A stretch of 64,000 nt of DNA from Nitrospinota bacterium (GTDB lineage: Bacteria; Nitrospinota; Nitrospinia; Nitrospinales; VA-1), in the NCBI GenBank assembly GCA_014382285.1, contig JACNKA010000124.1, positions 1,647-65,646 of the forward strand, read 5' to 3'. The notes under the pieces are model-generated. The model worked only from the letters and a program-made list of their open reading frames with translations. It searched no databases and was not told the DNA's origin. Numbering within the stretch: position 1 is the stretch's first letter; each line of letters starts with the position of its first letter. Of this stretch, positions 3,052-49,834 are shown piece by piece. A program made the position numbers and the translations under genes.

Positions 3052-3561
3052 TTAGAGTTTCATTTTCAGATCCTGCAACATCAAAAGGTGCTTTTTCTCC
3101 TCGACCAGCAAATGTGAAAAGATGGCCTTCACATCCAGTTTTTTCTCTTTCTCCAGTAAACTCTGAAGTATTTCTATCGATCTTTTTTCCGATTCAATTC
3201 CCAGCTCAAGAGCCTGCATGTCGTTATGAATTTCTTGCGCAGCAGAAGCCGTCAAGGCTGGAAAAATTTTGCCCTTCAGCTCTTCAACTATAAAGCGCGA
3301 CAAATGCTCTTTCGGTCTGTTCTGCCCCGCTATCGCTGGTTGCAAATAGCGGGATTTTTCCTGCAGAGTCTGAATATGCTCGCGTTCTTCATCGGCTAAA
3401 CGGGAAAACATCTCCCGCACCTGAGGGTTTTGAATCTTCTTGCCCGCCGACTCATAAAAAAACAGACCTTCCTTTTCAATGAACAGGCTGATTTCAATAG
3501 CGTCCGCACATTGAAACGAAGCTCTACTCGGATCCTCGTTTCCTGGTTTTCCTTTTTCCAT
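3052..3561 (-). CDS. Ferritin-like / rubrerythrin-domain protein
   Basis: 169-aa ORF with AGGGG SD. Paired ExxH-type helices (ADEEREHIQ, LVEEKKHLL and GIESEKRSIE) resemble diiron ferritin-like four-helix bundles. Confidence 0.6.
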   Translation of the reverse strand: MEKGKPGNEDPSRASFQCADAIEISLFIEKEGLFFYESAGKKIQNPQVREMFSRLADEEREHIQTLQEKSRYLQPAIAGQNRPKEHLSRFIVEELKGKIFPALTASAAQEIHNDMQALELGIESEKRSIEILQSLLEKEKKLDVKAIFSHLLVEEKKHLLMLQDLKMKL

Positions 3562-3748
3562 TCACACCCCTAAAATCTTAAAGGCACTTGCTAAGGACCA
3601 TCTTGCGTCGCCCCGGATTTTGAATAAACAATTTATCACAGCTTTGCGTCCACTTCTTTTGAAGAATCGACAGAAAACCACAGGAATCAAATTTCCTCAA
3701 TAAAAAGAATGTGTTATAGTTGGGATAGAAAACTTGGAGCTGGTGACC

Positions 3749-36786: not shown

Positions 36787-38451
36787 TTATCTAATATGCG
36801 CCATCTTCCAGGTTCGATAAGAACCTGTTAGGTTTCTAACTCTAAAACCACTCTGCGCCAAAAATCGGCAAGCGTAATAAGAACGCTGACCTGTTTGGCA
36901 ATAAGCAATTATCTCCTTATCCTTCTGTAATTCAGCAAGTCGTTGACGAAGCTGTGATAGAGGGATATGAAGTGAGCCGGGGATATGCCCCTCTTCTAGC
37001 TCATCTTCATCGCGAACGTCAAGGATGGTAGTCATTTGAGAATCCAGAGTTGTGATTTCGTGCCACTGGATGTTTTGAATCTCTCCCCGCATAACATGTT
37101 GAGCCACCATTCCAGCCAAATTAACCGGATCTTTTGCCGCGCCAAAAGGTGGAGCGTAAGCTAGCTCCAAATCTTCCAAGTCGTGAACGGTCAGGCCAGA
37201 CTTTAAAGCGGTCGCCAAAACATCAATGCGTTTATCCACCCCGTCCTTTCCCAGAATTTGTGCCCCCAATAATCGGCCCTCAGTGGGATCAAACAAGATT
37301 TTCATGGCCATTCGTTGCGCCCCAGGATAATAATTTGCATGCGATGCAGGATGTAAATGCACAGTATCGTAAGGTATTTCATTTTTTTTCAGGGTTTTCT
37401 CGTTGGCTCCTGTGCAAGCCGCAACCATATCAAAACACCTTAAGATGGCGGTGCCACAGGTTCCAGAATATTTCATCGACCCACCAAATATATTTTCGGC
37501 AACAATCCGGCCCTGCCGATTTGCTGGACCAGCAAGAGGAACCAATACCCATTCTCCCGTTATAAAATCCCGCACTTCAATCGCATCCCCTATTGCCCAA
37601 ATATGCGGATCACTGGTTCCGAGACCCTCATTGACTCTAATCCCGCCCTTGTCACCAATCTCCAGACCTGCATTTTTTACTAACTCCGATTCGGGTCGAA
37701 CTCCTATCCCCAAAATAACTACATCCGCAGGAATACGCGCCCCGCTTTTTAATTCAACCACGGTGGCCTGCTCCGTATAGGGTTCGGGGTTATCAAAACA
37801 AGCAACCGCATCATCTAAATGCAGCTTGACCTCCCTGGAGACAAGCTCCTGATGAAGCCATGCGGCCATCTCAGGATCTAAAGGAGCCATGACCTGCGGC
37901 AAACCTTCAACCAGCGTGATATGCAACCCTTTCCTATGAAGTTGTTCCACCATTTCCAAACCAATGAATCCGCCGCCGACCACTACCGCCCCGGTGGCTT
38001 TCTTTTCGCTGATCCATTGGAGTATGGCCTCCATATCCGGAATTCCACGGATAGAAAAAAGACCCTCCCGATCAATTCCAGGAATGGGTGGTTTTAAAGG
38101 ACGGGCGCCTGTAGAAATAATCAGGTCGTCATAGCTTTCCCAGTAATCCTTGCGCGATTTCAGGTCGCAAATCAGGATGCGTTTCTTTGATGGATCAAGC
38201 TCAATCACCTCAGACATCACTCGAACTTCGATATTAAATCGAGCGCGTAATCCTTCCGGGGTTTGAACCAGTAAATCTTCCTTGTCCTGGATTTCACCTC
38301 CGATATAATAAGGAAGACCACAGTTAGCAAAGGAAACATATGGGCCGCGTTCAATAATAATGACCTCAGATTCCTCCGACAGTCTTCGGGCATGCGCGGC
38401 GGCTGTCGCTCCACCCGCTACTCCCCCCACAATTAAAATACGCTTCTTCAT
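36787..38451 (-). CDS. CoA-disulfide reductase-like FAD pyridine nucleotide-disulfide oxidoreductase with C-terminal rhodanese domain
   Basis: ILIVGGVAGG FAD motif, single redox Cys in SFANCGLPYYIGG, second Rossmann VVVGGGFIGLE, and a C-terminal rhodanese with active-site loop YCQTGQRS. Confidence 0.8.
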   Translation of the reverse strand: MKKRILIVGGVAGGATAAAHARRLSEESEVIIIERGPYVSFANCGLPYYIGGEIQDKEDLLVQTPEGLRARFNIEVRVMSEVIELDPSKKRILICDLKSRKDYWESYDDLIISTGARPLKPPIPGIDREGLFSIRGIPDMEAILQWISEKKATGAVVVGGGFIGLEMVEQLHRKGLHITLVEGLPQVMAPLDPEMAAWLHQELVSREVKLHLDDAVACFDNPEPYTEQATVVELKSGARIPADVVILGIGVRPESELVKNAGLEIGDKGGIRVNEGLGTSDPHIWAIGDAIEVRDFITGEWVLVPLAGPANRQGRIVAENIFGGSMKYSGTCGTAILRCFDMVAACTGANEKTLKKNEIPYDTVHLHPASHANYYPGAQRMAMKILFDPTEGRLLGAQILGKDGVDKRIDVLATALKSGLTVHDLEDLELAYAPPFGAAKDPVNLAGMVAQHVMRGEIQNIQWHEITTLDSQMTTILDVRDEDELEEGHIPGSLHIPLSQLRQRLAELQKDKEIIAYCQTGQRSYYACRFLAQSGFRVRNLTGSYRTWKMAHIR

Positions 38452-38582
38452 TAATCAGCCTCCTCAATGGATTGGCTACCTGTCAAAAAACACATACTTC
38501 TCCAACCTGGTCTATTTTTCCTTATGCGCATTCATTTCCTTTTCTATAATACAATATAGTTCTCAATAGGAAGAAAAAGACT

Positions 38583-38951
38583 ATGAATCACGACTCAAAT
38601 TTACCGGGTTTAAAGACAAGGCAGGTCACCCGTTTTGTGCTGGTCCATTTTACCGGGGAAGATTCGTCCACCTATGAACACATCAAGCAATCTCACCTTG
38701 ATGAAGGCGAGCCTGAAATCGGTTTCCATTTCATCATCACGACACAAGGCACAACTTTAATGGGAAGGCACATTTCGAAGACAGGATTTCATTATCCGGA
38801 ACTGGATGACACAAGCATTGGAATTTGTGTAATAGGAAACCGCGATGAAATGAGCGATGAGCAATCAATCGCCCTCACTTTAATACTCGAAAAATTGAAA
38901 TCCGACTATCCATCGCTGGAAACTGTAAAATACCTGTACAAAAAACACTAG
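38583..38951 (+). CDS. Short amidase_2 (AmpD/PGRP)-like domain protein, probably truncated or degenerate
   Basis: FVLVHFTG, IGFHFIIT and SIGICVIG resemble N-acetylmuramoyl-L-alanine amidase family 2. The C-terminal His/Lys/DPG region is missing at 122 aa. Confidence 0.4.
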   Translation: MNHDSNLPGLKTRQVTRFVLVHFTGEDSSTYEHIKQSHLDEGEPEIGFHFIITTQGTTLMGRHISKTGFHYPELDDTSIGICVIGNRDEMSDEQSIALTLILEKLKSDYPSLETVKYLYKKH

Positions 38952-38986
38952 CCCGCATATTGCGTGAGAGTTTCTAAATCACCCCA

Positions 38987-39007
38987 GCCCCTCTTCAGAG
39001 AAGAGGG
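38987..39007 (+). terminator. Strong hairpin downstream of the 38583..38951 gene (terminator or REP-like)
   Basis: CCCCTCTTC-AGA-GAAGAGGGG, a perfect 9-bp stem with no clear U-tract. Confidence 0.35.
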
Positions 39008-39099
39008 GTTCATTGAAGCTCCCTCTCCCACGGGAGTGGGTCGTATTTCACTTCCCCCTCTGAAAAAGTCAGATATACTGTCTGCAAGGAGGATTGCCC

Positions 39100-39606
39100 G
39101 TGATTCGACAGGTTTTAAAAGTTTTCAAAGCTTTAAACTCAAATGAAAAGCCCTGGCAGCTCAGTCTCGGCCTGGCGTTTGGCGGCGTCATTGGCTTGAT
39201 GCCATTGTGGACTCCGCACAACATCGTCCTGCTATTTCTTGCTTTCATCATTAATTTGAATTTTGCCCTCCTGCTCATCGGAGTTTTCTTTTTCTCCGGC
39301 ATCGCCTACATTCTTGACCCCCTGTTCCATCAAATCGGTTTGGCAGTTCTGACTTCAGAGGGACTGCAAAGTTTCTGGAACGGATTCTTTAGCAATTCGA
39401 TTTTCCTCTTTGACAGACTGAACAACACCTTGGTAATGGGCAGCTTGATTTTCTCCCTGATCTCTGCGGTGCCACTGTTTTTTATTTTCAATTTTCTCAT
39501 TCGAAAATACCGCGAGCATTTGATGGGGTTGCTTGAAAAAATACCTTTTCTTAAATCTCTCAAGCTGGCAAAAGCATTCAACACGGTCACGGGAGGCGGA
39601 TCATGA
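39100..39606 (+). CDS. DUF2062/TIGR03546-like small membrane protein
   Basis: AAGGAGG lies 7 nt before GTG 39100. Has 3-4 TM helices. Recalled as the conserved partner of the downstream gene family; not verified. Confidence 0.5.
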   Translation: MIRQVLKVFKALNSNEKPWQLSLGLAFGGVIGLMPLWTPHNIVLLFLAFIINLNFALLLIGVFFFSGIAYILDPLFHQIGLAVLTSEGLQSFWNGFFSNSIFLFDRLNNTLVMGSLIFSLISAVPLFFIFNFLIRKYREHLMGLLEKIPFLKSLKLAKAFNTVTGGGS

Positions 39607-41390
39607 AACTTTTCCGCTGGCAGGGAGTACTGGCTTTCGCTTTAGTCGGTGGTGTCGTGGGAGTTTTCCTGTTCCTGTTCCTCGATGGCATGATCGAAAG
39701 AGGCATTGAAGAAAAAGGCTCCGAAGTGGCAAAAACCCAGATAGACATAGGTTCCCTGACCACTTCTTTATTGTCCCAATCTGTAGCCCTGTCCAGAATT
39801 GAAATCGCCAACCCCGATAACAACATGGAAAACCTGATCCAGTTTGAAAAACTTTCACTGGACCTCAACGGGGCGCAGATTGTTTCGCACAAAATAATCA
39901 TCGACGAACTTCAGGCTCACGGCATAAAACTCAACCAGAAGCGAACCCAACCCGCCCAAGTAATCAGGAGCGCTGAATCGACTCAAGAGGCAGGACAAGA
40001 AAGTGCCGCCAGCCAAAGTAGCCTTCCCGGCTTGGGCGAACTGAGCGGGTTAAGCGTAAAATCTCCAGAAGAAATTCTCAAGTCCGAAAAACTTGAGACT
40101 CTGGAAGCCGGGAACCGGGCTAAAAAAACCATCGATGATTTAAAAGCCAAATGGGAGAAAAAGTTTGAGACCGACCTCAACCCCAACGCTCTAAAAGAAA
40201 CCCAACAGAAGCTGACTGAATTGCAGAAGAAAGTCACCGGCGGAGACTTGACAGAAATCCCCAAAGCCTTGCAAGAATTCGAAAATCTGCAAAAAGATAT
40301 TCAGGATCGAATGAACCGCATCACTTCAATGAAATCCGAATTCGAAAAAGACATGCAAATGGCAAAGCAGCAGGTCGCTGACTTGAAGAATCTGCCGCAG
40401 AAAGATTTTGAACGATTGAAAAATAAATACTCACTAAGCCCTGGAGGCGGAAAAAATATTCTTGGGTCAATGCTGGAGGGTCCGTTAAAAGAAAAACTGG
40501 ACAAGGCCTGGAAAACATACAAAATGATCAGCCCTTATTTAAATCAAGGTAAGAAATCTTCTCGGGAACAGCAGGAATACGTTCGCGGCAAGGGAATAGA
40601 TATTTCGTTCGCCAAGGCATCTCCCTACCCCGATTTCCTGCTTAAACATGGCGACCTGTCTTTGATTCTTTTCGACACGGAAGTAAAAGGCGAAGTGAAA
40701 GATTTATCAGACAACCAGACCGTCTACGGGAAACCCGCCAAGCTGAACTTTCAATCGGGCAAAAACCAAAACTTTAACTCCTTTGCTCTCGCCGTCACGA
40801 TGGATAAAACTGGCCCGCAATCCCTGGACTCCATCGCTCTGGACATGCAGGGACTCAACCTGAAAAATGTGGGTCAAGCAGAGCTTAAAGACGGCTCGGC
40901 AAAAATCAATGGCTTATTAACTATCATTGATGAAAATAATTTAAATGGCATTTTCAAAGCCGAACTGGATGGCGTGGCACTTTCAATTCCCCAACAGGAA
41001 GGCAACGAACTGGCTAACACCATCGCGCAATCGTTATCAAGCATTGACCGAATCAATATTTCTGTCGAAATCAGCGGAACAATAGAAAATTACCAGTTGG
41101 ATATAAAATCGAACCTTACCGAGATCGTCTCCAAAGCAGTCAAGAAAGCCCTGGCTGGAAAAATGAAAGGATTTGAAAGTTCCCTGATGTCCGCCATTCA
41201 AGCAAAAACTGGCGATGTCCTCTCCGGCACCAGTGGTTCGCTTTCCGGCTTGCTCGGTCAAAACAAAATTTTAAATGATAGCGGGTCTGCTTACGGCGGG
41301 TTGCTGGGTCAAGCTAAAGGCGGAGCAACAGAGCTGGCAAAACCCAAAGGCGGCCTCTCGCTACCCGGCGGATTAAAACTTCCGTTTTGA
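39603..41390 (+). CDS. TIGR03545-like / AsmA-related membrane-anchored protein
   Basis: 595 aa with an N-terminal TM helix, a central coiled-coil K/E-rich region and a Gly-rich C-terminus. Overlaps the upstream gene by 4 nt (ATGA). Confidence 0.5.
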   Translation: MKLFRWQGVLAFALVGGVVGVFLFLFLDGMIERGIEEKGSEVAKTQIDIGSLTTSLLSQSVALSRIEIANPDNNMENLIQFEKLSLDLNGAQIVSHKIIIDELQAHGIKLNQKRTQPAQVIRSAESTQEAGQESAASQSSLPGLGELSGLSVKSPEEILKSEKLETLEAGNRAKKTIDDLKAKWEKKFETDLNPNALKETQQKLTELQKKVTGGDLTEIPKALQEFENLQKDIQDRMNRITSMKSEFEKDMQMAKQQVADLKNLPQKDFERLKNKYSLSPGGGKNILGSMLEGPLKEKLDKAWKTYKMISPYLNQGKKSSREQQEYVRGKGIDISFAKASPYPDFLLKHGDLSLILFDTEVKGEVKDLSDNQTVYGKPAKLNFQSGKNQNFNSFALAVTMDKTGPQSLDSIALDMQGLNLKNVGQAELKDGSAKINGLLTIIDENNLNGIFKAELDGVALSIPQQEGNELANTIAQSLSSIDRINISVEISGTIENYQLDIKSNLTEIVSKAVKKALAGKMKGFESSLMSAIQAKTGDVLSGTSGSLSGLLGQNKILNDSGSAYGGLLGQAKGGATELAKPKGGLSLPGGLKLPF

Positions 41391-41447
41391 TTTAAAATAA
41401 TCAAGCCCTCGCCCCGTCATGCTACTCCATTAAATAAACCGACAGGT

Positions 41448-42026
41448 TTAGGCCAGCACTCGTCTTCTATAAACCACCATCAGGGAATATATCAGGCATA
41501 CTGTCGCTATGGTTGCGGGGAATAAGGCAGTCGTTAGCGAATAGTTTTCCAAGGCTAAAATAACAAAAAAGTTACGTGCTGCCATAATCACAAAAAATAT
41601 CAACTGCTCTTCAAGAGGGTACATATATGCCTTCCTAAAGGTTGGAGCAAACCCCAACACATCGACCGTCGTCAAGATCACCACGGCCCATAACGGATCC
41701 GAGGTCAGGTACCAAAGGGGTAAGGATATCATGGCAAATACAAAAAATATCCAGTCTACTCGGGTGATGGTGCTATCTGACTTCTTGATATAAGCCAAAA
41801 AAGCAACATAGATGGAAATAATACCGGAAAACCCTATTACCCAGGCACCCGCCCCGCCTTTATCTGCAAGCTGAGCCAGAAAAACAATACATGTAGAAGA
41901 CCCCCATATTACCCAGGAAAACACATGCGGCCTGATTTTACCCTGAAGAATAGAACGTATATAGGGGTAATAGGCAATTATTGTTAGCCCGATAGCAATA
42001 GCACTGAATAGCTGTTCTTGATTCAC
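41448..42026 (-). CDS. Integral membrane protein (about 6 TM helices)
   Basis: 192 aa, hydrophobic throughout. No catalytic motif recognised. Confidence 0.55.
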   Translation of the reverse strand: MNQEQLFSAIAIGLTIIAYYPYIRSILQGKIRPHVFSWVIWGSSTCIVFLAQLADKGGAGAWVIGFSGIISIYVAFLAYIKKSDSTITRVDWIFFVFAMISLPLWYLTSDPLWAVVILTTVDVLGFAPTFRKAYMYPLEEQLIFFVIMAARNFFVILALENYSLTTALFPATIATVCLIYSLMVVYRRRVLA

Positions 42027-42115
42027 AAGAGGCTCTCAATATTTTATATGTTTCCTGAAAAACCTGAATGGTACGGGTTTAAAAAAAGGCAGGAGTTAAG
42101 CGTCCCGGCTCGCCA

Positions 42116-42643
42116 TTAAGAAGATGCTCGTTCAATAGCTTCTCCTATCAGTTGGGCTGCATGCTCGGAACCTTCCCAGTCATCCAACTCGACCCATTTC
42201 CCTGGCTCTAAATCTTTATAGTGAGCAAAAAAATGGGCAATTTGCTCCAGAAGGATTTTAGGCAAATCGGTATATTCTTTGACATCTGAATAATAAGGGT
42301 TCAAGGCATCAACCGGGACAGCTAGAATTTTTTCATCCGCCCCTTTTTCATCCCTCATTTCCAAAACTCCGACAGGTCGGCAACGGACGATGCAGCCGGA
42401 TAAAAACTCCACAGGGGAGGCCACCAGAATATCAAGGGGGTCACCGTCTTCGGAAAGGGTATGCGGCACAAATCCGTAATTACAGGGGTAACGCATTGAA
42501 GTGTGCATGACGCGGTCTACATACAAAGCACCGGATTTTTTATCCATTTCGTATTTCACCGGTTCACGACCAAATGGAACCTCAATGATAACGTTGATAT
42601 CCCACGGGGGTGCTTCGCCTATCGGTATTGCATCAATATTCAT
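42116..42643 (-). CDS. ppa: Inorganic pyrophosphatase (family I)
   Basis: VIIEVPFGREPVKYEMDK...ALYVDR...YPCNYGFVPHTLSEDGDPLDILV matches the family I PPase signature. Confidence 0.9.
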   Translation of the reverse strand: MNIDAIPIGEAPPWDINVIIEVPFGREPVKYEMDKKSGALYVDRVMHTSMRYPCNYGFVPHTLSEDGDPLDILVASPVEFLSGCIVRCRPVGVLEMRDEKGADEKILAVPVDALNPYYSDVKEYTDLPKILLEQIAHFFAHYKDLEPGKWVELDDWEGSEHAAQLIGEAIERASS

Positions 42644-42810
42644 AACAGGTCACTTAATTTATAGAACGAAAATTCATTCAAGGTTTATAACTCATTCAGC
42701 ACTGGGGACAATAGATCTGTCAGGAAGTGTCAAACTGATCAGGCTTTTTAAAGCCCACTGGAAATGTTTCAACTAATGGGAAGGTAGCCAGTCACCATTC
42801 CTGTAAGGAA

Positions 42811-42885
42811 TGCCGAGGGCCGGAATCGAACCGGCACGAGGTCGTTGGTAAAATATAACGCCCTCGAGGGATTTTAAGTCCCTTT
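42811..42885 (-). pseudogene. tRNA-Leu 3' fragment (anticodon arm through 3' end); att-like direct repeat of the intact tRNA at 49751..49834
   Basis: TGCCGAGGGCCGGAATCGAACCGGCACGAGG...CCCTCGAGGGATTTTAAGTCCCTT matches the intact gene apart from 2 substitutions and a ~16-nt insertion in the variable-arm loop. The 5' acceptor and D arm are absent and replaced by AT-rich sequence. Confidence 0.75.
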
Positions 42886-43066
42886 ATTGATAATGTAACT
42901 TATTGATTTTATTGGTAATTAAAATTATTTTCCTGTGTATGTGTAAGAAACTGTGTAAGTTTTGACCGATTTTAAACCACATTCAAGCCCCTAATACAGC
43001 TTCTAATGCATTTTACTTTTTCTCCTATTAGATGTCTTCTTATTTTTTGCAGATAGGCGTCTCTGG

Positions 43067-46000
43067 CTAGGAAGGCAGTCGAATCTCTCGGAACGACTCG
43101 CCAAGCTGAAGCGCCGCACTTCGCCGATCACCCATATCGACTAGCATGTCTAGGATTCGTAAAAACTTCTGCGCCAGCGTAAGAGTCATAGGTGCGTCAC
43201 GATGTGCAAAGTGTTGTACCAGCTCCGCAATGCGCGCTGGAATGAAGGTCCCGTGCCAACCTTTTAGGTTGTCGGGACCGTCCCCTATAATTGCGAGGAC
43301 TTGGTCTGCAAAGACTTCGGCTGGGTAGTTGACCCGAGCTCGTTCAGAGAGCGTCAAAAATGGGTCCATCACTGAAGCCGCCCATCCGCCAGCGCGAATG
43401 AAGCGATCAACTAAGGGCAGGATGCGGGTGATTTCAGACCAGTCACCATTCACATAGCGGGCGGCCCCCTCCGCTCGCTCTACTGAGACAAACATCAACG
43501 TGCGAACAAGATTTGGTTGATCGAAGCCTGAAAATTCTCCACTCCTGTAGGTGTCCCGCTTTAAGACAGAGTCTTGCAGAAGCCGTTCAAGACAGAGATC
43601 AAGTATTGTAATAGAGTCCACAGGAACGATTGGCGCATCGAACACATAAGCGCAAACAAAGGTATCCGCGAATGGTGAGAGAAGGGCCCAGCAATTGTCC
43701 CCTTCAAGGTCCAAAATCGGGTCAAGAAAACGGGCCTGAAAATCGGCGAGCGGGATTAGGCCAGCTATGTGACCCAGCCGCGATCCAAGCGTATGCGTCC
43801 ACTCAAAAATTCGGGTTGCTGACCGATCACGACGCCCCGGCTTCACCCACGGCGGAGCATTTTTCTGGTTAGTCCAGTCAAGAACATTGGCAAGGAATTC
43901 GAGAAGGTTATTTTGTGCCTCGCTGTTCAGAACTTCATCGAAAGGGAGGTACTTGAGGATTTCTGCTGCCTGCTTTGAGTGCCAGAAGACATCCGGTTCA
44001 CCCCACCTCTCGGCCAAGTCAGTTGCATCACCCATATCATAATCTTCGTAGACTTGATGCCCACGTCGGCCCGTTCCGGGTTCGACTTTCACCCATGCTG
44101 GAGGAGGTAACGGAAGAGGAGCCCAGCCGCTTCCACTCTCATAGAACTCAAGCGCCGTTTTGACTTTATCTTGTGCTTCACTTGAAGTGAGAAGTGGTTC
44201 ACCATATTGACGGGGCTGGTCTTGCGGGCGTGAAGGAACGCTACAGAGAGAAAATGCCAAGATCAGAGCGGACCAAGTAAGCTTGGAGTCATTAGACCAA
44301 AGTTTGCAAGCTTCTTCAATTGCTGCTGACGAAACGACTTCAAGTGGATGCGCAATCATCTTGAGGAGGTCTCGAGCTGTGCCGTGCGCTGCAGTCCTCT
44401 CGCGAATATCCGCTGCAAGGCCACGCGCCACGTAAATCCCATGGTGCCAGGGAATAACGGATTCTGGGGACGACATTAGATCGGGTTTCTCTGGAAAACG
44501 AATTGCACGCCTTAGAATATCACGAGCCCACTCAAGATCTTGTTGTGTACGCCCTTCTCGAAAGTTAAGCACTATGGCCGCTGTCGCTGCGACTGCACCC
44601 CGATGTATTCCAAACCGCTCTTCTTCATTCTGGTTGCTCGAGTTTTCGAATAAGTTAACGGTGTCTGCTTCCTTGGCTAACTTAATGGCATCTTCAACGG
44701 TATAGGTGTCATTCAGTGCCTTTTCTTCGAAGGATTTGGATGCCCACGTCCAAAGGCCCGTTTGCCTGAGGTATTTAGTAGCCTTTTCAGCCTTAGCAAC
44801 ATTTTCAGGTTCAGCAGCAGAAGGGCTAACATGGACAATGGCAATCTGGTCTGAATCCTCTTCGGTGCGGTAGCTCTGATAGTTTTTCGGGTCCGCCAGC
44901 TCGGCATATTTGAGGGCCTGCGCTGTGAGATGCTCCCGCTCCTCCTGAATGTTGCGGTGTTCTTCGTATTGGTAGGGCAAATTGTTCTTGAAATTTAGAA
45001 TCGCTTCTCGCGCTCGGCCACGGAAAGGCTCCGTTGCAAAGACGAAGCTGGGTACCATCCAACTAAGCTGTTTCTTACGGACCGGCCTGGCATTTGCAGC
45101 CTGGACCGCTTCAAAGTGGGGTTTGTCGGTTCTACCCTTGAAACCCATCAGGTTGGCCGTTGATGAAAAGTAGTCTTGCTCCCATCGGTTATCATCTGCA
45201 GCTAACAGCCTTTGCGATGTAAAGAGTGGAAATGTTGTTTCAGACACCGTCTCGGTGTGGAGTGTAAGCATTGAAGCCATTCCTAGGATGGCTATGCATT
45301 CATTTCCCTCTACAATTTGTTGTATCAGCTCGTCAACAGACCGGTCGCGATCAAGCTCGGCGAAGCACCACTCCTCAAGCGCCATAAACCCACAGCCGAT
45401 GGCTTCGGGCGCAAACATTGACCGAAACCAAAGATACTCTCGATTCGTTCCCCAGAAAATTTGAGTGCCCCAGGGAAATGTTAGTTCAAGCGGTATAGGG
45501 ATGCCACTACGGTCGTATGAGTGGCGATGTAACTGTTGCCACGCGGTCATCGCATGATTACAGAGTTCTCGAAGGAGACGCAATGCATGGTCAGGCGATG
45601 ATTGGAATAGTGAATGAAAGGGGTCGCGCAGCGGTGAAGGGGGATTGAAGCTTTGGTGGTCGTCGTTGATCGACAGTCTTTCCCAATCGTGGTAACTGAA
45701 ATCGCCTATAGTACGTAAAGGAGAACAAGCATCAATCACCATATTCTCGTGACGTGTGCGTTCCGCCTCCGGTTTTTCCAAGATTGCTTTGCGTCGCTCA
45801 GCATGATCATGAAGTTCCTGCTTTTCTCGGGCGGCTTGCTCGTCTGGAAGTTCCTCCCGTAGAAATGCGAGTGCAAACTCAAAGACTGGCTGGGGCAACG
45901 ATTGAGCCAAGATAGGTGTGTAGTTGATAATGTTATGAAATTCATCATCTCTTATGCGCTCTAATTTGGTGACCCGTTGCAAATACTCAGCTGCAACTGT

Positions 46001-47326
46001 CGGATAAGTTTTGGATGATTTTAAGAGAAGTTGGCTCAACGATTTTCGGAAAGAGTCCATGTCGGAAATCTTTCTCCAAAACTCAGAGTTCTCGTCAGAA
46101 TTATAGAAGGGATAAATCTTGTCGATGGCGGCCAACCAAATAGCGCATTGTTGCAGAAGCGAACTAGACGTTGCGTTGCGAATGTTGACTAATGCATTTT
46201 GCCAAACCTCGAAGATGGCGACGACCTCTGGATAAAGCCGCTGGGGAATGTCTGAAATGCGCGGTAGAATAAAGTCGATGAGGCGACGCCACGCTGCGTA
46301 ATCGGAAGGCCACCCGAGGAGATCCGCGATTCGTTGGCGTTGTTCTCGGGGAAGATCACCAGTAAGAATAAGCTCATTTGGGGTTGTCTTCTCAGCCTGA
46401 ATCCATACGAGCGTCTTCCTGAAAAGTAGGAAATCATTGGCAAAGACGACCGTTGCGAATTGGTCTTCATCATTTTCAAACCTTGCATTTCCCAAGGGAC
46501 CAAGCAACCACGCTCTTAACCATTGTGACCGTAGTTCCGAATCCTCCGTTTGGGCAAGGTACGCTGACCAGTTTGTTCCCTGCGAGTACTCCCATTGGGA
46601 GTTGAGCTCGACGACGCGAGCTACTGCCGGAGGTTCACCGCAGGCCTTGATAACGTCAATCCATTGTTGTCCGCAATCTGCAAGGATATGGAAGAAGGCC
46701 CATTCGAAAAAAATATCATGGGCAAAGCGGATGGAAACCCCTTCGCGAGCATTTTGGAGTATGCCGTCTGATCTTAGATCATCAATGCGTGTGAGTGAGG
46801 TTAGCTGACTAAGGGGAACCGGCTGGCTAAGCTGGCGGGCACGAATATTTGCTAATTCGAGCAATGCGCGCTGGCGTTCAAGCGCATTTTGACCCGTTTC
46901 ATTGTAACCTCCCCGACTCCACCAATTCCCAATTAAATCGATTTCAGATTGAGGGGCGAATGTCGAAGCGCTGGGGTCGGCCATGTAATTTTGGTTCAGC
47001 ACTTTTGCAAAAAAGGGCCGTCGGACAATCTCTCGCACTTGGGCTGATCCAAATAAAAGTGGTCTCAGGTGTGGTTTGGCGTTAGCGAGTGCCTCAGCTT
47101 CATCGTCGCTCAACTGAGTAATGTTAATCGTCTCTACCTTCAGGGGGTCAAGAAATTCGCCCAGCCAATTGCGAAGCACCTCAATACCCGTATCGCGAAG
47201 GGAGACTACTATGCGCCAGTTGTTTAACAATGGCGATTTCACAATGGTGTGAATTATGTCTATGATGATGGGCTGATGTTCTTTTTCGATGCGATCAATC
47301 GCATCGATGTAGAAAATTGGGAGCAC
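43067..47326 (-). CDS. Giant protein: C-terminal part of a STAND/NACHT-like NTPase (Walker B onward) plus >1,200-aa helical domain of unknown function
   Basis: 1419 aa with a GTG start. The N-terminus PIFYIDAIDRIEKE is Walker B-like, and RIVVSLRDTG resembles the NACHT TSR motif. The remainder is W/L/E/R-rich with no recognisable motif. Overlaps the upstream ORF by 32 nt. Confidence 0.7.
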   Translation of the reverse strand: MLPIFYIDAIDRIEKEHQPIIIDIIHTIVKSPLLNNWRIVVSLRDTGIEVLRNWLGEFLDPLKVETINITQLSDDEAEALANAKPHLRPLLFGSAQVREIVRRPFFAKVLNQNYMADPSASTFAPQSEIDLIGNWWSRGGYNETGQNALERQRALLELANIRARQLSQPVPLSQLTSLTRIDDLRSDGILQNAREGVSIRFAHDIFFEWAFFHILADCGQQWIDVIKACGEPPAVARVVELNSQWEYSQGTNWSAYLAQTEDSELRSQWLRAWLLGPLGNARFENDEDQFATVVFANDFLLFRKTLVWIQAEKTTPNELILTGDLPREQRQRIADLLGWPSDYAAWRRLIDFILPRISDIPQRLYPEVVAIFEVWQNALVNIRNATSSSLLQQCAIWLAAIDKIYPFYNSDENSEFWRKISDMDSFRKSLSQLLLKSSKTYPTVAAEYLQRVTKLERIRDDEFHNIINYTPILAQSLPQPVFEFALAFLREELPDEQAAREKQELHDHAERRKAILEKPEAERTRHENMVIDACSPLRTIGDFSYHDWERLSINDDHQSFNPPSPLRDPFHSLFQSSPDHALRLLRELCNHAMTAWQQLHRHSYDRSGIPIPLELTFPWGTQIFWGTNREYLWFRSMFAPEAIGCGFMALEEWCFAELDRDRSVDELIQQIVEGNECIAILGMASMLTLHTETVSETTFPLFTSQRLLAADDNRWEQDYFSSTANLMGFKGRTDKPHFEAVQAANARPVRKKQLSWMVPSFVFATEPFRGRAREAILNFKNNLPYQYEEHRNIQEEREHLTAQALKYAELADPKNYQSYRTEEDSDQIAIVHVSPSAAEPENVAKAEKATKYLRQTGLWTWASKSFEEKALNDTYTVEDAIKLAKEADTVNLFENSSNQNEEERFGIHRGAVAATAAIVLNFREGRTQQDLEWARDILRRAIRFPEKPDLMSSPESVIPWHHGIYVARGLAADIRERTAAHGTARDLLKMIAHPLEVVSSAAIEEACKLWSNDSKLTWSALILAFSLCSVPSRPQDQPRQYGEPLLTSSEAQDKVKTALEFYESGSGWAPLPLPPPAWVKVEPGTGRRGHQVYEDYDMGDATDLAERWGEPDVFWHSKQAAEILKYLPFDEVLNSEAQNNLLEFLANVLDWTNQKNAPPWVKPGRRDRSATRIFEWTHTLGSRLGHIAGLIPLADFQARFLDPILDLEGDNCWALLSPFADTFVCAYVFDAPIVPVDSITILDLCLERLLQDSVLKRDTYRSGEFSGFDQPNLVRTLMFVSVERAEGAARYVNGDWSEITRILPLVDRFIRAGGWAASVMDPFLTLSERARVNYPAEVFADQVLAIIGDGPDNLKGWHGTFIPARIAELVQHFAHRDAPMTLTLAQKFLRILDMLVDMGDRRSAALQLGESFREIRLPS

Positions 47327-48455
47327 CAGTAGCCTCGACCTCTACGAGAAGCTGTTCCAGTGGCGCACCCGACAAGCCCTGCGAGGTCGCATAGCTAATC
47401 CAGTTGGTCCCTTCGAGTTGCTCGGCTTTAAGAAAGAGGATCGGCCCCTGTTCTAGCGAACGTTGCACTGCCCGCCTCACTAGGACTGATTTACCACTTC
47501 CCGGTAAACCCCTTACCTGGACGACATGAGCCGTAGTGAGTTTTGTGTCTAGACTCTCTAATAACTGGGTTCGGTCGAGCTTTGTTCCACCAATATCGTC
47601 AGGAATGAGGTTCGTGTAACTCTTAGCTAACTCTGTCAATTTGCCTAAGTCATGGCTTAGAGAAGTCGCACCACGGAGACGCGCGACTGGTGAAATGAAA
47701 TGCACAAGTCGTGTGCGATTAAACTGACCTGATTTACCTGCTGATGAACGTGCTAGCTGGACTACTCGCGACCAGACAAGCGAAGCCTTGGCTGCGTCGT
47801 CTGGTGCGAGACAATCCCGAATACGATTAATGGCTTCAGAAGGATCAGTAGAACCTTCGCGAAGGAAGTCGAACTGTATTAGTACAAAATGAGCAAGAAA
47901 GTGATGTACTTCTTCAGTCGTACATGACATCCCCTTTTCTTCTTCCAACAGAGTCACAACATCGTTCTTAACGGTTTTAATGTCTGGGCTGGCGTTTCCA
48001 CCCTCAACAAATCGAGCATGGAAATGGTCAGGCGTCAGACTTTCACGAGCCAAATCGCAAAGTGTTTTTAGTGCTCGTTCTTTGGAAGGGGTAATGGTTC
48101 CAACTGCCGTTCCGTAGCGGTCGACATTAAAGCGAAAGTCAGGCTTATTAAAGGTTGCCCAACTGTCTCGGATGATTTCGCGAAAGTCTTCATTCGAATT
48201 TGCACTGCTGATCGTGAGAGAACGTTTTACTTGTAGGCTAAGTCGAGCAGGGTTCTTTGAATCATCTTCAAAGTCGACAATCACATCATCGAGGGGTTCA
48301 CCGAAATCGCGTTGTTGGACCGAAACTTGAATAACAGTTCGATCATCGATCCCAGGTGCATAAGCTTCGGCTAATAACGCAGCGAGATAAAATGCAGCCG
48401 CGTCACCTTCAAAGGTAAATCCTTCGCCGCCACCGATTTCAGGTGATTGTGACAT
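47295..48455 (-). CDS. PD-(D/E)xK-like (Cap4/DUF4297-like) nuclease N-domain plus the Walker A half of a P-loop NTPase
   Basis: 386 aa. GGGEGFTFEGDAAAFYLAALL...LDDVIVDFED...LSLQVKRS at the N-terminus, and GLPGSGKS Walker A about 60 aa before the stop. Confidence 0.65.
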   Translation of the reverse strand: MSQSPEIGGGEGFTFEGDAAAFYLAALLAEAYAPGIDDRTVIQVSVQQRDFGEPLDDVIVDFEDDSKNPARLSLQVKRSLTISSANSNEDFREIIRDSWATFNKPDFRFNVDRYGTAVGTITPSKERALKTLCDLARESLTPDHFHARFVEGGNASPDIKTVKNDVVTLLEEEKGMSCTTEEVHHFLAHFVLIQFDFLREGSTDPSEAINRIRDCLAPDDAAKASLVWSRVVQLARSSAGKSGQFNRTRLVHFISPVARLRGATSLSHDLGKLTELAKSYTNLIPDDIGGTKLDRTQLLESLDTKLTTAHVVQVRGLPGSGKSVLVRRAVQRSLEQGPILFLKAEQLEGTNWISYATSQGLSGAPLEQLLVEVEATGAPNFLHRCD

Positions 48456-48807
48456 CGCTATTTTGAAAAAGGGTTTTACCCCACCACGGATGGTCGAGTT
48501 ATTCGAGAATTTCTATTCGATAGCACTACAGTCATTAAGCCGTCCTCACTGGAGTCGGGTTTTCACTTACAGAACAGATTTTTACAAAGTATACCTCAAA
48601 GATTTTTTTTCAGGGCTTTTCCTTTTTTCGCCCCTCAGTCATCTAGGTTTTTCAATTCAGGTTTTACAGCATCGGAAGTTTTAACCGGCAAGGGCGTGCC
48701 TCCTTCACTCCGTTATGCCCTGTGGGTTGCAGTTTTCTGCCGCTACTGCCTCTCCTGAAAATATGAAAGGCCCGGATGGTTCGGGCTTAAAAAATAAGGA
48801 GGAAAAA

Positions 48808-48930
48808 ATGGAACATTTGATCGTCATGCACGAACTGGAAGGTTTGAGCGAACCGGAACATCTTGGCTCTAAAAAGAACAAATGTGTAAATGTTCAAACT
48901 TTACAATTGTGCGCAAAACCGCTAAGCTGA
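48808..48930 (+). CDS. Candidate 40-aa small ORF in the island
   Basis: AAGGAGG lies 6 nt upstream of ATG 48808. Encodes MEHLIVMHELEGLSEPEHLGSKKNKCVNVQTLQLCAKPLS. No similarity recognised. Confidence 0.25.
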   Translation: MEHLIVMHELEGLSEPEHLGSKKNKCVNVQTLQLCAKPLS

Positions 48931-48967
48931 AATAAGGAGAAATTCTCTCAATACAGGAGTAAAAATA

Positions 48968-49231
48968 ATGCGACGTTTATCCATAGAGGTCACCCCGGAG
49001 CAACACCAACGGCTAAAAGCCGTCGCCGCCCTCCAAGGCAAGACCATAAAAGATTACGTTCTTGAACGTGCCTTGCCACAGCTCCCGGATTTGAGTTCCA
49101 TGTCCGAAGAAGAGGCGGTCAATAAACTGGAAGATTTTTTGAAACCCCGCATCGAGGCCGCAAGGAAGGGTGAATTTTCGCCCCGGTCGGTCGAACAGAT
49201 TTTTGAGGATGTACGGCAGGAACAAAAATAA
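48968..49231 (+). CDS. Ribbon-helix-helix antitoxin (ParD/CopG-like)
   Basis: 87 aa. The N-terminal RLSIEVTPEQHQRLKAVAALQGKTIKDYVLERAL is an RHH fold pattern. Its stop overlaps the toxin start (TAATG). Confidence 0.7.
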   Translation: MRRLSIEVTPEQHQRLKAVAALQGKTIKDYVLERALPQLPDLSSMSEEEAVNKLEDFLKPRIEAARKGEFSPRSVEQIFEDVRQEQK

Positions 49232-49539
49232 TGCGGCCTTATGAATTAACCAAGGATGCGGAAGCCGACTTGGAAGAAATTGCCCGGTACACAATTGAGG
49301 AATGGGGCGAAGCCCAAGCCGAAAGTTATCTGGGAAAAATCAGCCAGTGTTTTAAGAATATCACTAAAAACAAAGTAGCCTCCCGAACCTTTTCAGAAAA
49401 ATTCCCCGATGCGCAAGTCATCCGCTGCGAGCATCACTATATTTTCTATTTGTATCTCAAGGGGGAAAAGCCCATCATCTTCGCCGTTCTCCACGAACGG
49501 ATGGACATGTTGACGCGTTTAAAAAATCGTCTGGGATAA
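49231..49539 (+). CDS. RelE/ParE family toxin
   Basis: 102 aa. YELTKDAEADLEEIARYTIEEWGEAQAESYL...HHYIFY...IIFAVLHERMD is typical of ParE-type toxins. Confidence 0.8.
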   Translation: MRPYELTKDAEADLEEIARYTIEEWGEAQAESYLGKISQCFKNITKNKVASRTFSEKFPDAQVIRCEHHYIFYLYLKGEKPIIFAVLHERMDMLTRLKNRLG

Positions 49540-49657
49540 AAATCGGATTTATATTTCCTGATCCGTAAGGGTCGGCGAGCCGCCGTTGTTAACATCCCCA
49601 ACATTTGGAGTTTTGTAGCACTCAAAAAGCCTGAAAAGTCCCCTCCACGGGTGGTGG

Positions 49658-49673
49658 TGCCGAGGGCCGGAAT
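49658..49673. repeat. 16-nt copy of the tRNA-Leu 3' end (att remnant)
   Basis: TGCCGAGGGCCGGAAT is identical to 42811-42826. Both carry G where the intact tRNA gene has A. Confidence 0.5.
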
Positions 49674-49679
49674 GAGTTG

Positions 49680-49730
49680 TAGCTTGTTCAGCCGAGACCA
49701 GATTTTCTTGCCCAAAAAAGATATTGCTAT
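49680..49730. repeat. Fragment of the dispersed repeat family between the att remnant and the tRNA
   Basis: TAGCTTGTTCAGCCGAGACC...AAAAGATATTGCTAT matches the left part of copy A at 13351-13397. Confidence 0.55.
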
Positions 49731-49750
49731 TTTCCTCTCCCGTGAGGGAG

Positions 49751-49834
49751 TGCCGAGGACCGGAATCGAACCGGTACGAGGTTACCCTCGAGGGATTTTA
49801 AGTCCCTTGCGTCTACCAATTCCGCCACCCCGGC
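49751..49834 (-). tRNA. tRNA-Leu (anticodon UAA)
   Basis: Minus strand reads GCCGGGGTGGCGGAATTGGTAGACGCAAGGGACTTAAAATCCCTCGAGGGTAACCTCGTACCGGTTCGATTCCGGTCCTCGGCA. It folds by hand into a cloverleaf: 7-bp acceptor (one G-U), anticodon loop CTTAAAA, long variable arm CGAGG-GTAA-CCTCG, T-loop TTCGATT. CCA is not encoded. Confidence 0.9.

What the first reader, a model, noticed from the sequence alone, without database searches (positions are those of the whole stretch)
42811..49834. Integrase-less ~6.9-kb island bounded by tRNA-Leu(UAA) 3'-end repeats
An intact tRNA-Leu(UAA) lies on the minus strand at 49751..49834. Downstream of its 3' end are two further copies of its 3' portion. One is a 16-nt piece at 49658-49673. 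The other is a 75-nt piece at 42811-42885 covering the anticodon arm to the 3' end, but lacking the 5' acceptor and D arms. The two partial copies share a G that the intact gene lacks. The 75-nt copy also has a ~16-nt insertion in the variable-arm loop, suggesting it came from a foreign attP-borne tRNA segment. Next to the 42.8-kb repeat is an AT-rich stretch with repeated TTATTGAT, possibly recombinase arm sites. No integrase or excisionase ORF is visible, so the island looks immobilised or is mobilised in trans.
Basis: seen in the sequence. Interest (0 to 1): 0.65.

Follow-up and report, generated by a model that had tools for sequence, protein, structure and literature searches.

The report
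Decayed integrase-less island at tRNA-Leu
A 6.9-kb piece of foreign DNA carrying a broken anti-phage-type gene and a toxin-antitoxin pair sits in a leucine tRNA gene of a marine Nitrospina bacterium. It is the worn-down remnant of a mobile element that has lost its own integration enzyme, which is a common kind of genomic island.

Summary
An intact tRNA-Leu(UAA) lies at 49750-49834 (-). A 75-nt copy of its anticodon-stem-to-3'-end portion lies at 42811-42885, with 18 nt replacing 2 nt in the variable loop. A 16-nt 3'-end copy lies at 49658-49673.

Two related Nitrospina species have tRNA-Leu directly next to ppa, so the 6.9 kb between them is an insertion. Other relatives carry different cargo at the same site.

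The 75-nt piece is the displaced native half, and the intact gene's 3' half came in with the island.

The cargo is a 1795-aa Avs4-like STAND ATPase, inactivated by one extra base, plus ParDE. No recombinase was found in the island or among the window ORFs checked.

Next to the 75-nt piece is a 26-nt TTACACA-repeat motif and a site matching the IHF consensus. The exact motif occurs in 27 metagenome contigs. In 19 independent copies (18 exact, one variant) its spacing to a tRNA anticodon loop is fixed. These copies include the right ends of large conjugative elements.

The island is best read as a decayed derivative of such an element, of the CIME type. This is an ordinary kind of feature and a new member of it.

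The parts
49750..49834 (-). Intact tRNA-Leu(UAA). It is a hybrid gene with the native 5' part. The part from about the anticodon loop to the 3' end has the A-T T-stem allele and was supplied by incoming DNA (attL).
   Evidence: Found by ARAGORN and Rfam at 58.4 bits. The T-stem allele differs from empty-site relatives L009 and L011 and from the displaced fragment.
49674..49749 (-). 76-nt trailer after the tRNA. It starts with the hairpin TCCCTCACGGGA, which resembles the native Nitrospina tRNA trailer. It is probably the residue of the most recent event.
   Evidence: Shown by the trailer alignment. In the MAG contig L002 this stretch stays attached to a displaced 3' half.
49658..49673 (-). 16-nt fragment of the tRNA 3' end, running from the T loop to the discriminator base, with the native-type C. 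It is followed by CCA (49655-49657). It is a displaced fragment of the T-stem type from a second integration event, or a truncated one.
   Evidence: Exact 16-mer repeat. With its trailer it matches the L011 tRNA end at 26 of 27 positions.
49231..49539 (+). ParE toxin gene
   Evidence: Pfam PF05016, E = 9.6e-15. It overlaps the parD stop codon.
48968..49231 (+). ParD antitoxin gene
   Evidence: Pfam PF09386, E = 6.3e-35.
48456..48852 (.). Conserved backbone segment. It holds the divergent promoter region and the first 14 codons of a small ORF (ATG at 48808, MEHLIVMHELEGLS...), which is truncated here.
   Evidence: 88.9% identical to L089 and 76% to L010, which carries different cargo. Positions 48765-48808 match the conjugative element L120 at 88.6%. 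Pfam gives no hit for the small ORF.
43067..48455 (-). Avs4-like STAND NTPase gene, 1795 aa when repaired. It is split into ORFs of 386 aa and 1419 aa by one extra base at about 47317/47318, so it is a pseudogene.
   Evidence: PADLOC Avs4, E = 1.2e-19. NCBIfam Avs4, E = 5e-37, but far below the cut-off. PDB 8dgf Avs4, E = 3.5e-6. Homologues are single ORFs of 1794-1795 aa. The 1-nt insertion is seen against L089, L090 and L092.
42933..42958 (-). 26-nt arm motif TTACACAGTTTCTTACACATACACAG, made of three TTACACA-type direct repeats. It is a presumed arm-type integrase binding site of attR.
   Evidence: It occurs once in the window, with 0 expected by chance. It is exact in 27 metagenome contigs. 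It ends 53-55 nt before the anticodon loop in 19 independent sequences.
42896..42908 (-). Site matching the IHF consensus: AATCAATAAGTTA against WATCAANNNNTTR.
   Evidence: The consensus is met with at most 1 mismatch at offset 24-25 from the motif in 14 of 19 sequences.
42811..42885 (-). Displaced native 3' portion of tRNA-Leu (attR core), from the anticodon stem to the discriminator base. It has the G-C T-stem allele. In the variable loop 18 nt (42843-42860) replace 2 nt.
   Evidence: The same insertion is present in the second strain variant L004.
42116..42643 (-). ppa (inorganic pyrophosphatase), the native flank. In empty-site relatives it lies 60-190 nt from tRNA-Leu.
   Evidence: Pfam PF00719. 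Layout in L009 and L011.

Best explanation
The segment from about 42886 to about 49800 is the decayed remnant of one or more integrative elements. They entered the Nitrospina chromosome by site-specific recombination in the tRNA-Leu(UAA) gene, of the kind carried out by tyrosine integrases.

The main event crossed over in the anticodon stem-loop. The element brought its own copy of the tRNA 3' half, which now completes the gene. The native 3' half was pushed 6.9 kb downstream, next to ppa.

The far end (attR) still has a lambda-like layout. Three TTACACA-type repeats are followed 24 nt later by a site matching the IHF consensus. The core in the anticodon stem-loop follows, with the anticodon loop starting 53 nt after the motif. 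The same arm forms the right end of large conjugative or mobilisable elements in other phyla.

The end next to the tRNA has been eroded. In such elements that end normally carries the integrase gene and the second arm. A second event left only 76 nt and a 16-nt tRNA 3'-end fragment there.

What remains is cargo. One part is a widely transferred Avs4-like STAND ATPase gene, a candidate anti-phage sensor, now inactivated by a one-base insertion. The other is a ParDE toxin-antitoxin pair, which would tend to stabilise the segment.

Shown: the insertion, the hybrid tRNA, the arm layout, the cargo and the lack of a recombinase. Inferred: that a tyrosine integrase did the integrating, that it was lost by deletion, and the order of events.
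For: Empty sites: in L009 and L011 tRNA-Leu lies 190 and 60 nt from ppa.

Alleles: the displaced fragment has the G-C T-stem pair of the empty-site relatives and continues into the native region upstream of ppa. The intact gene has A-T. This fits the regenerated-target and displaced-fragment signature in PMC4383910.

Arm: the 26-nt motif is exact in 27 metagenome contigs beside 3' fragments of different tRNAs, namely Leu-UAA, Leu-CAA and a CAU-anticodon tRNA. Its spacing to the anticodon loop is fixed at 53-55 nt in 19 independent cases. The IHF consensus sits at a fixed offset in 14 of 19.

Link to conjugative elements: the same motif lies just after a MobA/MobL relaxase operon, with a coupling protein nearby, in L105, L109, L120-L123 and L125. 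A second backbone piece, 48765-48808, matches L120.

Hotspot: L010 has the same arm and backbone segment but BrnTA and a type IIG restriction-modification gene as cargo. L089 has an intact copy of the big gene. L002 has a further element inserted in the tRNA.

Composition: the tetranucleotide distance of the island is 0.0168. The 88 other windows of the same size average 0.0095 +/- 0.0011 and none exceeds 0.0122.

Decay: no recombinase domain was found in the island, in 20 other window ORFs or in the recorded Pfam hits for 32-52 kb. The frameshift is present in three assemblies. No shared motif was found on the side next to the tRNA.
Against: The integrase of this element family was never found, so its type rests on the site layout and on the literature. 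All six fully bounded units with this arm lack an integrase (window, L089, L010, L119, L104, inner unit of L117). That is more uniform than random decay would predict, although short units are the ones most easily seen whole.

Non-coding island segments are 84-89% identical between the window and L089, while most flanking core genes are 73-80% identical. This suggests movement more recent than expected for an old relic.

In L010 the trailer after the intact tRNA looks native for about 75 nt. This does not fit a simple single-crossover history there.

The 18-nt replacement in the variable loop is unexplained.
Confidence: 0.78

Rival explanations
1. The island is a non-autonomous but still mobile unit, a cis-mobilisable element (CIME). 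It keeps usable att sites. It is excised and transferred when a related conjugative element supplies integrase, for example after integrating in tandem beside it. On this view, units with this arm but no integrase are a propagating class of defence-gene carriers and not dead relics.
For: The attR arm is perfect in the window and in L010, although the surrounding DNA is only about 80% identical or cannot be aligned. Six of six fully bounded units with this arm lack an integrase.

The window and L089 share the island at 84-89% identity in non-coding parts, against 73-80% for most flanking genes. They differ in the allele of the displaced fragment and in the downstream gene, which suggests separate integrations.

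Tandem accretion is seen in L002 and L117. Contigs from at least 3 samples stop exactly at the tRNA 3' end, as expected if strains differ there. CIMEs and their mobilisation by accretion are documented (PMC5704250).
Against: No conserved sequence or TTACACA-type repeat lies on the side next to the tRNA in any of the units, so a second arm is not evident. No matching integrase was found in the window or in the related loci. The main cargo gene is frameshifted, and the small backbone ORF is truncated in the window and frameshifted in L010, as expected for decay. No empty site or circular junction from this same strain was recovered.
Confidence: 0.2
2. There was no insertion of a mobile element. 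The tRNA pieces are products of local duplication, or members of a dispersed repeat family, and the genes between them are ancestral.
For: GC content of the segment (0.486) is within the range of the rest of the window, 0.475 +/- 0.011. L089 carries the same large gene at the same site.
Against: Two related species have the empty site. Other relatives have unrelated cargo at the same place. The arm motif occurs once in the window and otherwise beside tRNA fragments in unrelated organisms. The large gene has homologues at 73-86% identity in many phyla, inside other mobile elements. Tetranucleotide composition is the most deviant in the window.
Confidence: 0.02

Closest known systems
tRNA-integrated genomic islands of the Islander type, with anticodon-centred (A) and T-stem (J) attachment sublocations (PMC4383910; Williams 2002 as cited there)
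   Same: A regenerated tRNA gene plus a displaced 3' fragment in direct orientation mark the ends. The 75-nt fragment starts at the anticodon stem (A type). The 16-nt fragment starts in the T loop (J type). The site is empty in relatives and can carry tandem arrays.
   Different: There is no integrase gene in the interval, so it would fail Islander's own filter. The displaced fragment has an 18-nt replacement in its variable loop.
CIMEs (cis-mobilisable elements): decayed ICEs or IMEs that keep att sites, as in the ICESt1/ICESt3 family of Streptococcus thermophilus (PMC5704250 and references there)
   Same: The integration and transfer genes are lost. The island derives from a conjugative or mobilisable element family, judged by the shared arm and a shared backbone piece. 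Another element has accreted in tandem at the same tRNA (L002).
   Different: Only the attR arm is recognisably kept. The attL-side arm is not evident. Mobilisation is untested. The host phylum (Nitrospinota) and the target (anticodon loop of tRNA-Leu) also differ.
Lambda-type attP/attR layout: arm-type integrase sites, an IHF bend and a core
   Same: Direct repeats lie at a fixed distance from the core, with a match to WATCAANNNNTTR between them. This recalled consensus was compared with the sequences.
   Different: No protein binding has been shown. The repeat sequence (TTACACA) and the spacing are specific to this family. The integrase is unknown.
Avs4 (AVAST type 4) anti-phage STAND NTPases (PDB 8dgf; NCBIfam NF041815)
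   Same: It is a large single-gene STAND ATPase with a P-loop (GLPGSGKS) and a Walker B motif. It matches the Avs4 NTPase region and part of the sensor region. It travels as cargo in mobile elements.
   Different: It scores 126.7 bits against a family cut-off of 1500. Its N-terminal domain matches no known Avs4 effector. The window copy is frameshifted.

Membership tests
tRNA-integrated genomic island (Islander definition) | Intact tRNA gene plus a fragment of the same tRNA in direct orientation, bounding the interval | tested here: met
   The 75-nt and 16-nt fragments are on the same strand as the gene and downstream of it.
tRNA-integrated genomic island (Islander definition) | The interval is absent from related genomes (empty site) | tested here: met
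   In L009 and L011, tRNA-Leu lies 190 and 60 nt from ppa.
tRNA-integrated genomic island (Islander definition) | Tyrosine integrase gene inside the interval | tested here: not met
   Pfam and PADLOC scans of all island ORFs give no recombinase domain. The recorded Pfam hits for L001 agree.
CIME (cis-mobilisable element) | Integration and transfer genes are lost | tested here: met
   No integrase, excisionase, relaxase or coupling protein is present.
CIME (cis-mobilisable element) | Derives from an ICE or IME | tested here: met
   The attR arm motif is identical to the right end of elements that carry a relaxase and a coupling protein. Positions 48765-48808 match L120.
CIME (cis-mobilisable element) | Both attL and attR are retained in functional form | tested here: inconclusive
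   In attR the core, the IHF-like site and the arm are intact. In attL the core is intact within the tRNA, but no conserved arm was found next to it.
CIME (cis-mobilisable element) | Excision and transfer when a related element supplies the functions | not testable with these tools
   Only tandem accretion is seen (L002; L117).
Lambda-type attachment site | Arm-type repeats and an IHF site at a fixed distance from the core | tested here: met
   The motif ends 53-55 nt before the anticodon loop in 19 independent sequences. The IHF consensus is met in 14 of 19.
Lambda-type attachment site | Integrase and IHF bind these sites | not testable with these tools
   This needs protein-DNA binding experiments, and the integrase has not been identified.
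Avs4 (AVAST type 4) | STAND NTPase core related to Avs4 | tested here: met
   PADLOC Avs4 E = 1.2e-19. NCBIfam NF041815 E = 5.3e-37. PDB 8dgf E = 3.5e-6.
Avs4 (AVAST type 4) | Reaches the curated family score (equivalog) | tested here: not met
   126.7 bits against a cut-off of 1500.
Avs4 (AVAST type 4) | Intact reading frame | tested here: not met
   A 1-nt insertion at about 47317/47318, seen against three homologues. It is the same in three assemblies.
ParDE type II toxin-antitoxin | ParD antitoxin directly upstream of a ParE toxin, in one operon | tested here: met
   PF09386 E = 6.3e-35 and PF05016 E = 9.6e-15. The genes overlap at 49231.

The most novel reading that the evidence does not exclude
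The TTACACA arm marks a family of tRNA-anticodon-loop integrating conjugative elements, not described as far as I could find, that spans several phyla. Its integrase-less derivatives, such as this island, are not relics. They are a propagating class of small carriers holding one or a few defence genes next to attR, moved in trans by the parent elements.
Probability: 0.15. Interest if true: 0.55.

Novelty: new member of a known kind. Interest (0 to 1): 0.33.

Why it matters
The island itself is an ordinary decayed genomic island. It is still of some use in three ways.

- It shows that tRNA-Leu(UAA) is a recombination hotspot in Nitrospina, an ecologically important and hard-to-grow marine nitrite oxidiser. 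Different defence cargo sits at this one site in different lineages.
- It yields a short DNA signature: a 26-nt motif, a site matching the IHF consensus, and a tRNA anticodon core at fixed spacing. This signature finds the right ends of one element family across soil, sediment, freshwater and marine metagenomes. It could be used to map such islands, including those without an integrase that standard island finders discard.
- It documents a 1795-aa Avs4-like gene kept at 73-86% protein identity across phyla. That gene is a candidate for functional study.

Tried and rejected
**Search for the family's integrase (none of these led to it)**
- The exact arm motif is absent from the viral contigs.
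- BLAST of the arm gave no match in plasmids or phages.
- Walking left in L117 failed because the chosen protein is not in the protein collection. That was the last protein search.
- Relaxase contexts show elements larger than the 10 kb of flank available, and no integrase is in view.
- A plasmid with a related relaxase has no integrase.
- A short peptide after the tRNA in L104, which from memory resembles an integrase N-terminus, gave no hit in NCBIfam or in plasmids. I do not count it as evidence.
- A search for the invertase of L121 in viral contigs returned only generic phage invertases.

**Other negative results**
- ORFs upstream of the motif in the metagenome loci share no common recombinase family. 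ORFs downstream are host genes.
- Rfam found only the tRNA in the island.
- Folding the 75-nt fragment alone gave no significant structure, z = -1.9.
- GC content does not distinguish the island.

**Ideas rejected**
- That the Logan contig breaks at 42838-42842 show polymorphism of this strain. They are explained by co-occurring Nitrospina species whose tRNA-Leu shares the 32-mer up to the variable loop.
- That the frameshift is a programmed one. The homologues are single ORFs and the window has a plain 1-nt insertion.
Full report
**1. The observation**

The window holds one tRNA gene, tRNA-Leu(UAA), at 49750-49834 on the minus strand (Rfam 58.4 bits). Two further copies of its 3' portion lie downstream on the same strand.

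- A 75-nt copy at 42811-42885 runs from the anticodon stem (tRNA position 26/27) to the discriminator base.
- A 16-nt copy at 49658-49673 covers the T loop to the discriminator base and is followed by CCA.

In the long copy, 18 nt (+ strand 42843-42860) replace 2 nt of the variable loop. This 18-mer is unique in the window. The long copy also differs at the pairing partner, so the partial copies have a G-C pair where the intact gene has A-T. The description is confirmed.

**2. Organism and the empty site**

The ppa protein is found unchanged on contigs identical to the window in three independent assemblies: ENA ERZ24794642, NCBI MAG GCA_016784525.1 and Logan SRR29139952. Its nearest relatives in the species-level genome set are Nitrospina MAGs at 83-89% identity.

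Two of these have tRNA-Leu(UAA) directly upstream of ppa, 190 nt away in L009 and 60 nt away in L011. The same upstream neighbours as in the window are present: ndhK-like gene, LRR protein and a 286-aa protein. The 6.9 kb between tRNA-Leu and ppa is therefore an insertion.

Other relatives have other contents at the same place.
- L010 has a BrnTA-like pair, a 949-aa Eco57I/MmeI-type restriction-modification gene and two unknown genes.
- L013, a single-cell genome, has a 5' tRNA fragment, an HNH endonuclease gene, an intact tRNA-Leu, a membrane pyrophosphatase gene and a 3' fragment.
- L089 has an intact copy of the window's large gene.

In the MAG contig L002 the sequence is identical to the window from 37864 to 49806. 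At the anticodon stem it then switches to unrelated DNA instead of the tRNA 5' half. A further element has inserted into the same tRNA in that assembly.

Contigs from at least three more samples end exactly at the tRNA 3' end. This is expected if co-occurring strains differ just there. The site is a hotspot.

**3. Which half is native**

The empty-site relatives have the G-C T-stem allele, like the window's 75-nt and 16-nt pieces. The window's intact gene has A-T. The sequence after the 75-nt piece aligns with the region between the tRNA fragment and ppa in L013, and its first hairpin resembles the native trailer of L009.

The 75-nt piece is therefore the displaced native 3' half. The 3' half of the intact gene came with the incoming DNA.

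The 75-nt piece begins at the anticodon stem, which is the anticodon-centred sublocation. The 16-nt piece begins in the T loop, which is the T-stem sublocation. Both classes are common. The 16-nt piece plus its trailer matches the tRNA end of L011 at 26 of 27 positions.

I read the 16-nt piece as the displaced end left by a second event. Of that event only 76 nt (49674-49749) remain. The order of events is inference.

**4. The arm**

Next to the 75-nt piece lies an AT-rich stretch (GC 0.30). A 43-nt block within it is identical between the window and L010, although their cargo is unrelated.

Its core is TTACACAGTTTCTTACACATACACAG at 42933-42958, made of three TTACACA-type direct repeats. It occurs once in the window, with none expected by chance. 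The pattern, allowing T or C at one position, has exact matches in 27 metagenome contigs from soil, sediment, freshwater and marine samples. It always lies upstream of a 3' tRNA fragment that starts at the anticodon stem-loop. The fragments come from different tRNAs: Leu-UAA, Leu-CAA and a CAU-anticodon tRNA.

In 19 independent sequences the motif ends 53-55 nt before the anticodon loop. The one exception has 74 nt and carries a 21-nt duplication of the repeat. At offset 24-25 from the motif, 14 of 19 sequences match the IHF consensus WATCAANNNNTTR with at most one mismatch, and 6 match exactly. In the window this site is AATCAATAAGTTA at 42896-42908. The consensus is from my own knowledge, and the match to it is what was tested.

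The layout of arm-type repeats, a bend site and a core is that of a lambda-type attachment site.

**5. Parent elements**

In L105, L109, L103, L120-L123 and L125 (a variant motif) the arm lies just downstream of a MobA/MobL relaxase operon. A type IV coupling protein and other conjugation-related genes lie within 10 kb. The arm is thus the right end of large integrative conjugative or mobilisable elements.

A second small piece of the island backbone is the ribosome-binding site and start of a small ORF (48765-48808). It matches the conjugative element L120. The same segment is shared with L089 (88.9%) and L010 (76%). The small ORF is complete only in L089.

The Nitrospina islands therefore look like derivatives of such elements, with cargo between two backbone pieces.

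**6. Cargo**

*The large gene.* The ORFs at 47295-48455 and 43067-47326 are one gene. Three intact homologues show that the window has one extra base at about 47317/47318. The insertion is present in all three assemblies.

The repaired protein has 1795 aa. It has a P-loop and a Walker B motif. It matches Avs4 models weakly: PADLOC E = 1.2e-19, NCBIfam E = 5e-37 at 126.7 bits against a cut-off of 1500, and PDB 8dgf E = 3.5e-6.

Homologues of 1794-1798 aa at 73-86% identity occur in Chrysiogenota, Beta- and Gammaproteobacteria and Acidobacteriota. In L090 the gene sits beside AlpA and a P4-type integrase. In L092 it sits beside an IS91-type transposase. It is a highly mobile cargo gene and a candidate anti-phage sensor, and it is inactivated here.

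*The toxin-antitoxin pair.* ParD (48968-49231) and ParE (49231-49539) are clear.

**7. No recombinase**

No integrase, excisionase, relaxase or transposase domain appears in the island. None appears in the recorded Pfam hits for window positions 32-52 kb or in 20 further window ORFs.

The integrase of the family could not be reached with the searches available. Its being a tyrosine recombinase is inferred from the site layout and from the statement that only tyrosine recombinases are known to target tRNA genes.

**8. Composition**

GC content is 0.486 in the island against 0.475 +/- 0.011 in the rest of the window, which is not distinctive. The tetranucleotide distance to the rest of the window is 0.0168. 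For 88 other windows of the same size it is 0.0095 +/- 0.0011 with a maximum of 0.0122. One long gene dominates this measure.

**9. Relic or still mobile**

*For a relic.* The side next to the tRNA shows no shared sequence or TTACACA-type repeat in any integrase-less unit. The cargo gene is frameshifted and the small backbone ORF is truncated.

*For continued mobility.*
- All six fully bounded units with this arm lack an integrase (window, L089, L010, L119, L104, inner unit of L117).
- The arm is perfectly kept.
- Non-coding parts of the island are 84-89% identical between the window and L089, while most flanking genes are 73-80% identical.
- The two lineages differ in the allele of the displaced fragment and in what lies downstream. 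This suggests separate integrations.
- Tandem accretion is seen.

Elements that have lost integration and transfer genes but keep att sites, and move after accretion with a functional element, are known as CIMEs (PMC5704250). I put about 0.78 on a decayed island that is now probably immobile. I put about 0.2 on a unit that can still be moved in trans.

**10. Verdict**

The finding is real and its main interpretation holds. It is a composite, integrase-less island at tRNA-Leu(UAA) in Nitrospina, derived from a family of conjugative elements that integrate into tRNA anticodon loops. It is a new member of a known kind and of modest interest. The arm signature and the recurrence of integrase-less units that carry defence genes are the parts worth following up.

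Noticed in passing
L117 3480-3860 (metagenome contig Ga0114931_10003827): Inside a tandem island in a Nitrospinota-like contig there is a second tRNA-Leu(UAA) gene whose anticodon loop is interrupted by a group I intron. Rfam Intron_gpI matches 3511-3729 at 64.1 bits against a gathering score of 50. This arrangement is classically known from cyanobacteria and plastids, and here it seems to be carried by a mobile element.
   Followed up: partly
L013 4298-9854 (Nitrospinae single-cell genome RIS_SAG_05): Here the native tRNA-Leu is split at the anticodon loop, with 11-nt direct repeats ACTTAAAATCC. The insert does not restore the gene at the junction. Instead it carries a complete tRNA-Leu of its own, an HNH homing-endonuclease-like gene and a membrane H+-pyrophosphatase gene.
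   Followed up: partly
window 43067-48455; P0001-P0120: The 1795-aa Avs4-like protein family keeps 73-86% protein identity and about 78% DNA identity across distant phyla (Nitrospinota, Chrysiogenota, Proteobacteria, Acidobacteriota). That is unusually high for a gene of this size. Its N-terminal 275 aa match only a PADLOC model named DUF626_VIII.
   Followed up: partly
L120 1-2923; L121-L123 1-3123: The conjugative elements that share the arm motif also carry a tail-fibre-like gene (Peptidase_S74 or GP38 domains). An adjacent serine invertase gene suggests a switchable host-range or adhesin module inside a conjugative element.
   Followed up: no
L002 1-2840 (GCA_016784525.1 contig JADHUL010000065.1): A further element is inserted in the same tRNA-Leu in this MAG. 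It carries a Sel1-repeat protein, a 194-aa secreted protein and a 340-aa protein with no Pfam match. Its right arm is unrelated to the TTACACA motif, so a second element family uses the same anticodon-loop site.
   Followed up: partly
window 42843-42860: An 18-nt sequence with complementary ends (CGTT...AACG in the tRNA sense) replaces 2 nt in the variable loop of the displaced tRNA fragment. It is unique in the window and present in two strain variants. Its origin is unexplained.
   Followed up: partly
L089 15627-15951: In this Nitrospina relative the displaced tRNA fragment is followed almost at once by the end of the 595-aa gene homologue. The ppa gene and the 192-aa gene are missing from this position.
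   Followed up: no
L094-L119, upstream of the arm motif: The genes just inside the attR arm in unrelated hosts are often of defence type. Judged by sequence inspection or Pfam, they include an AbiEi/AbiEii-like pair, a DUF262/DUF1524-like nuclease, a Fic-domain protein, a type IIG restriction-modification gene and the Avs4-like gene. This suggests a cargo hotspot next to attR.
   Followed up: no
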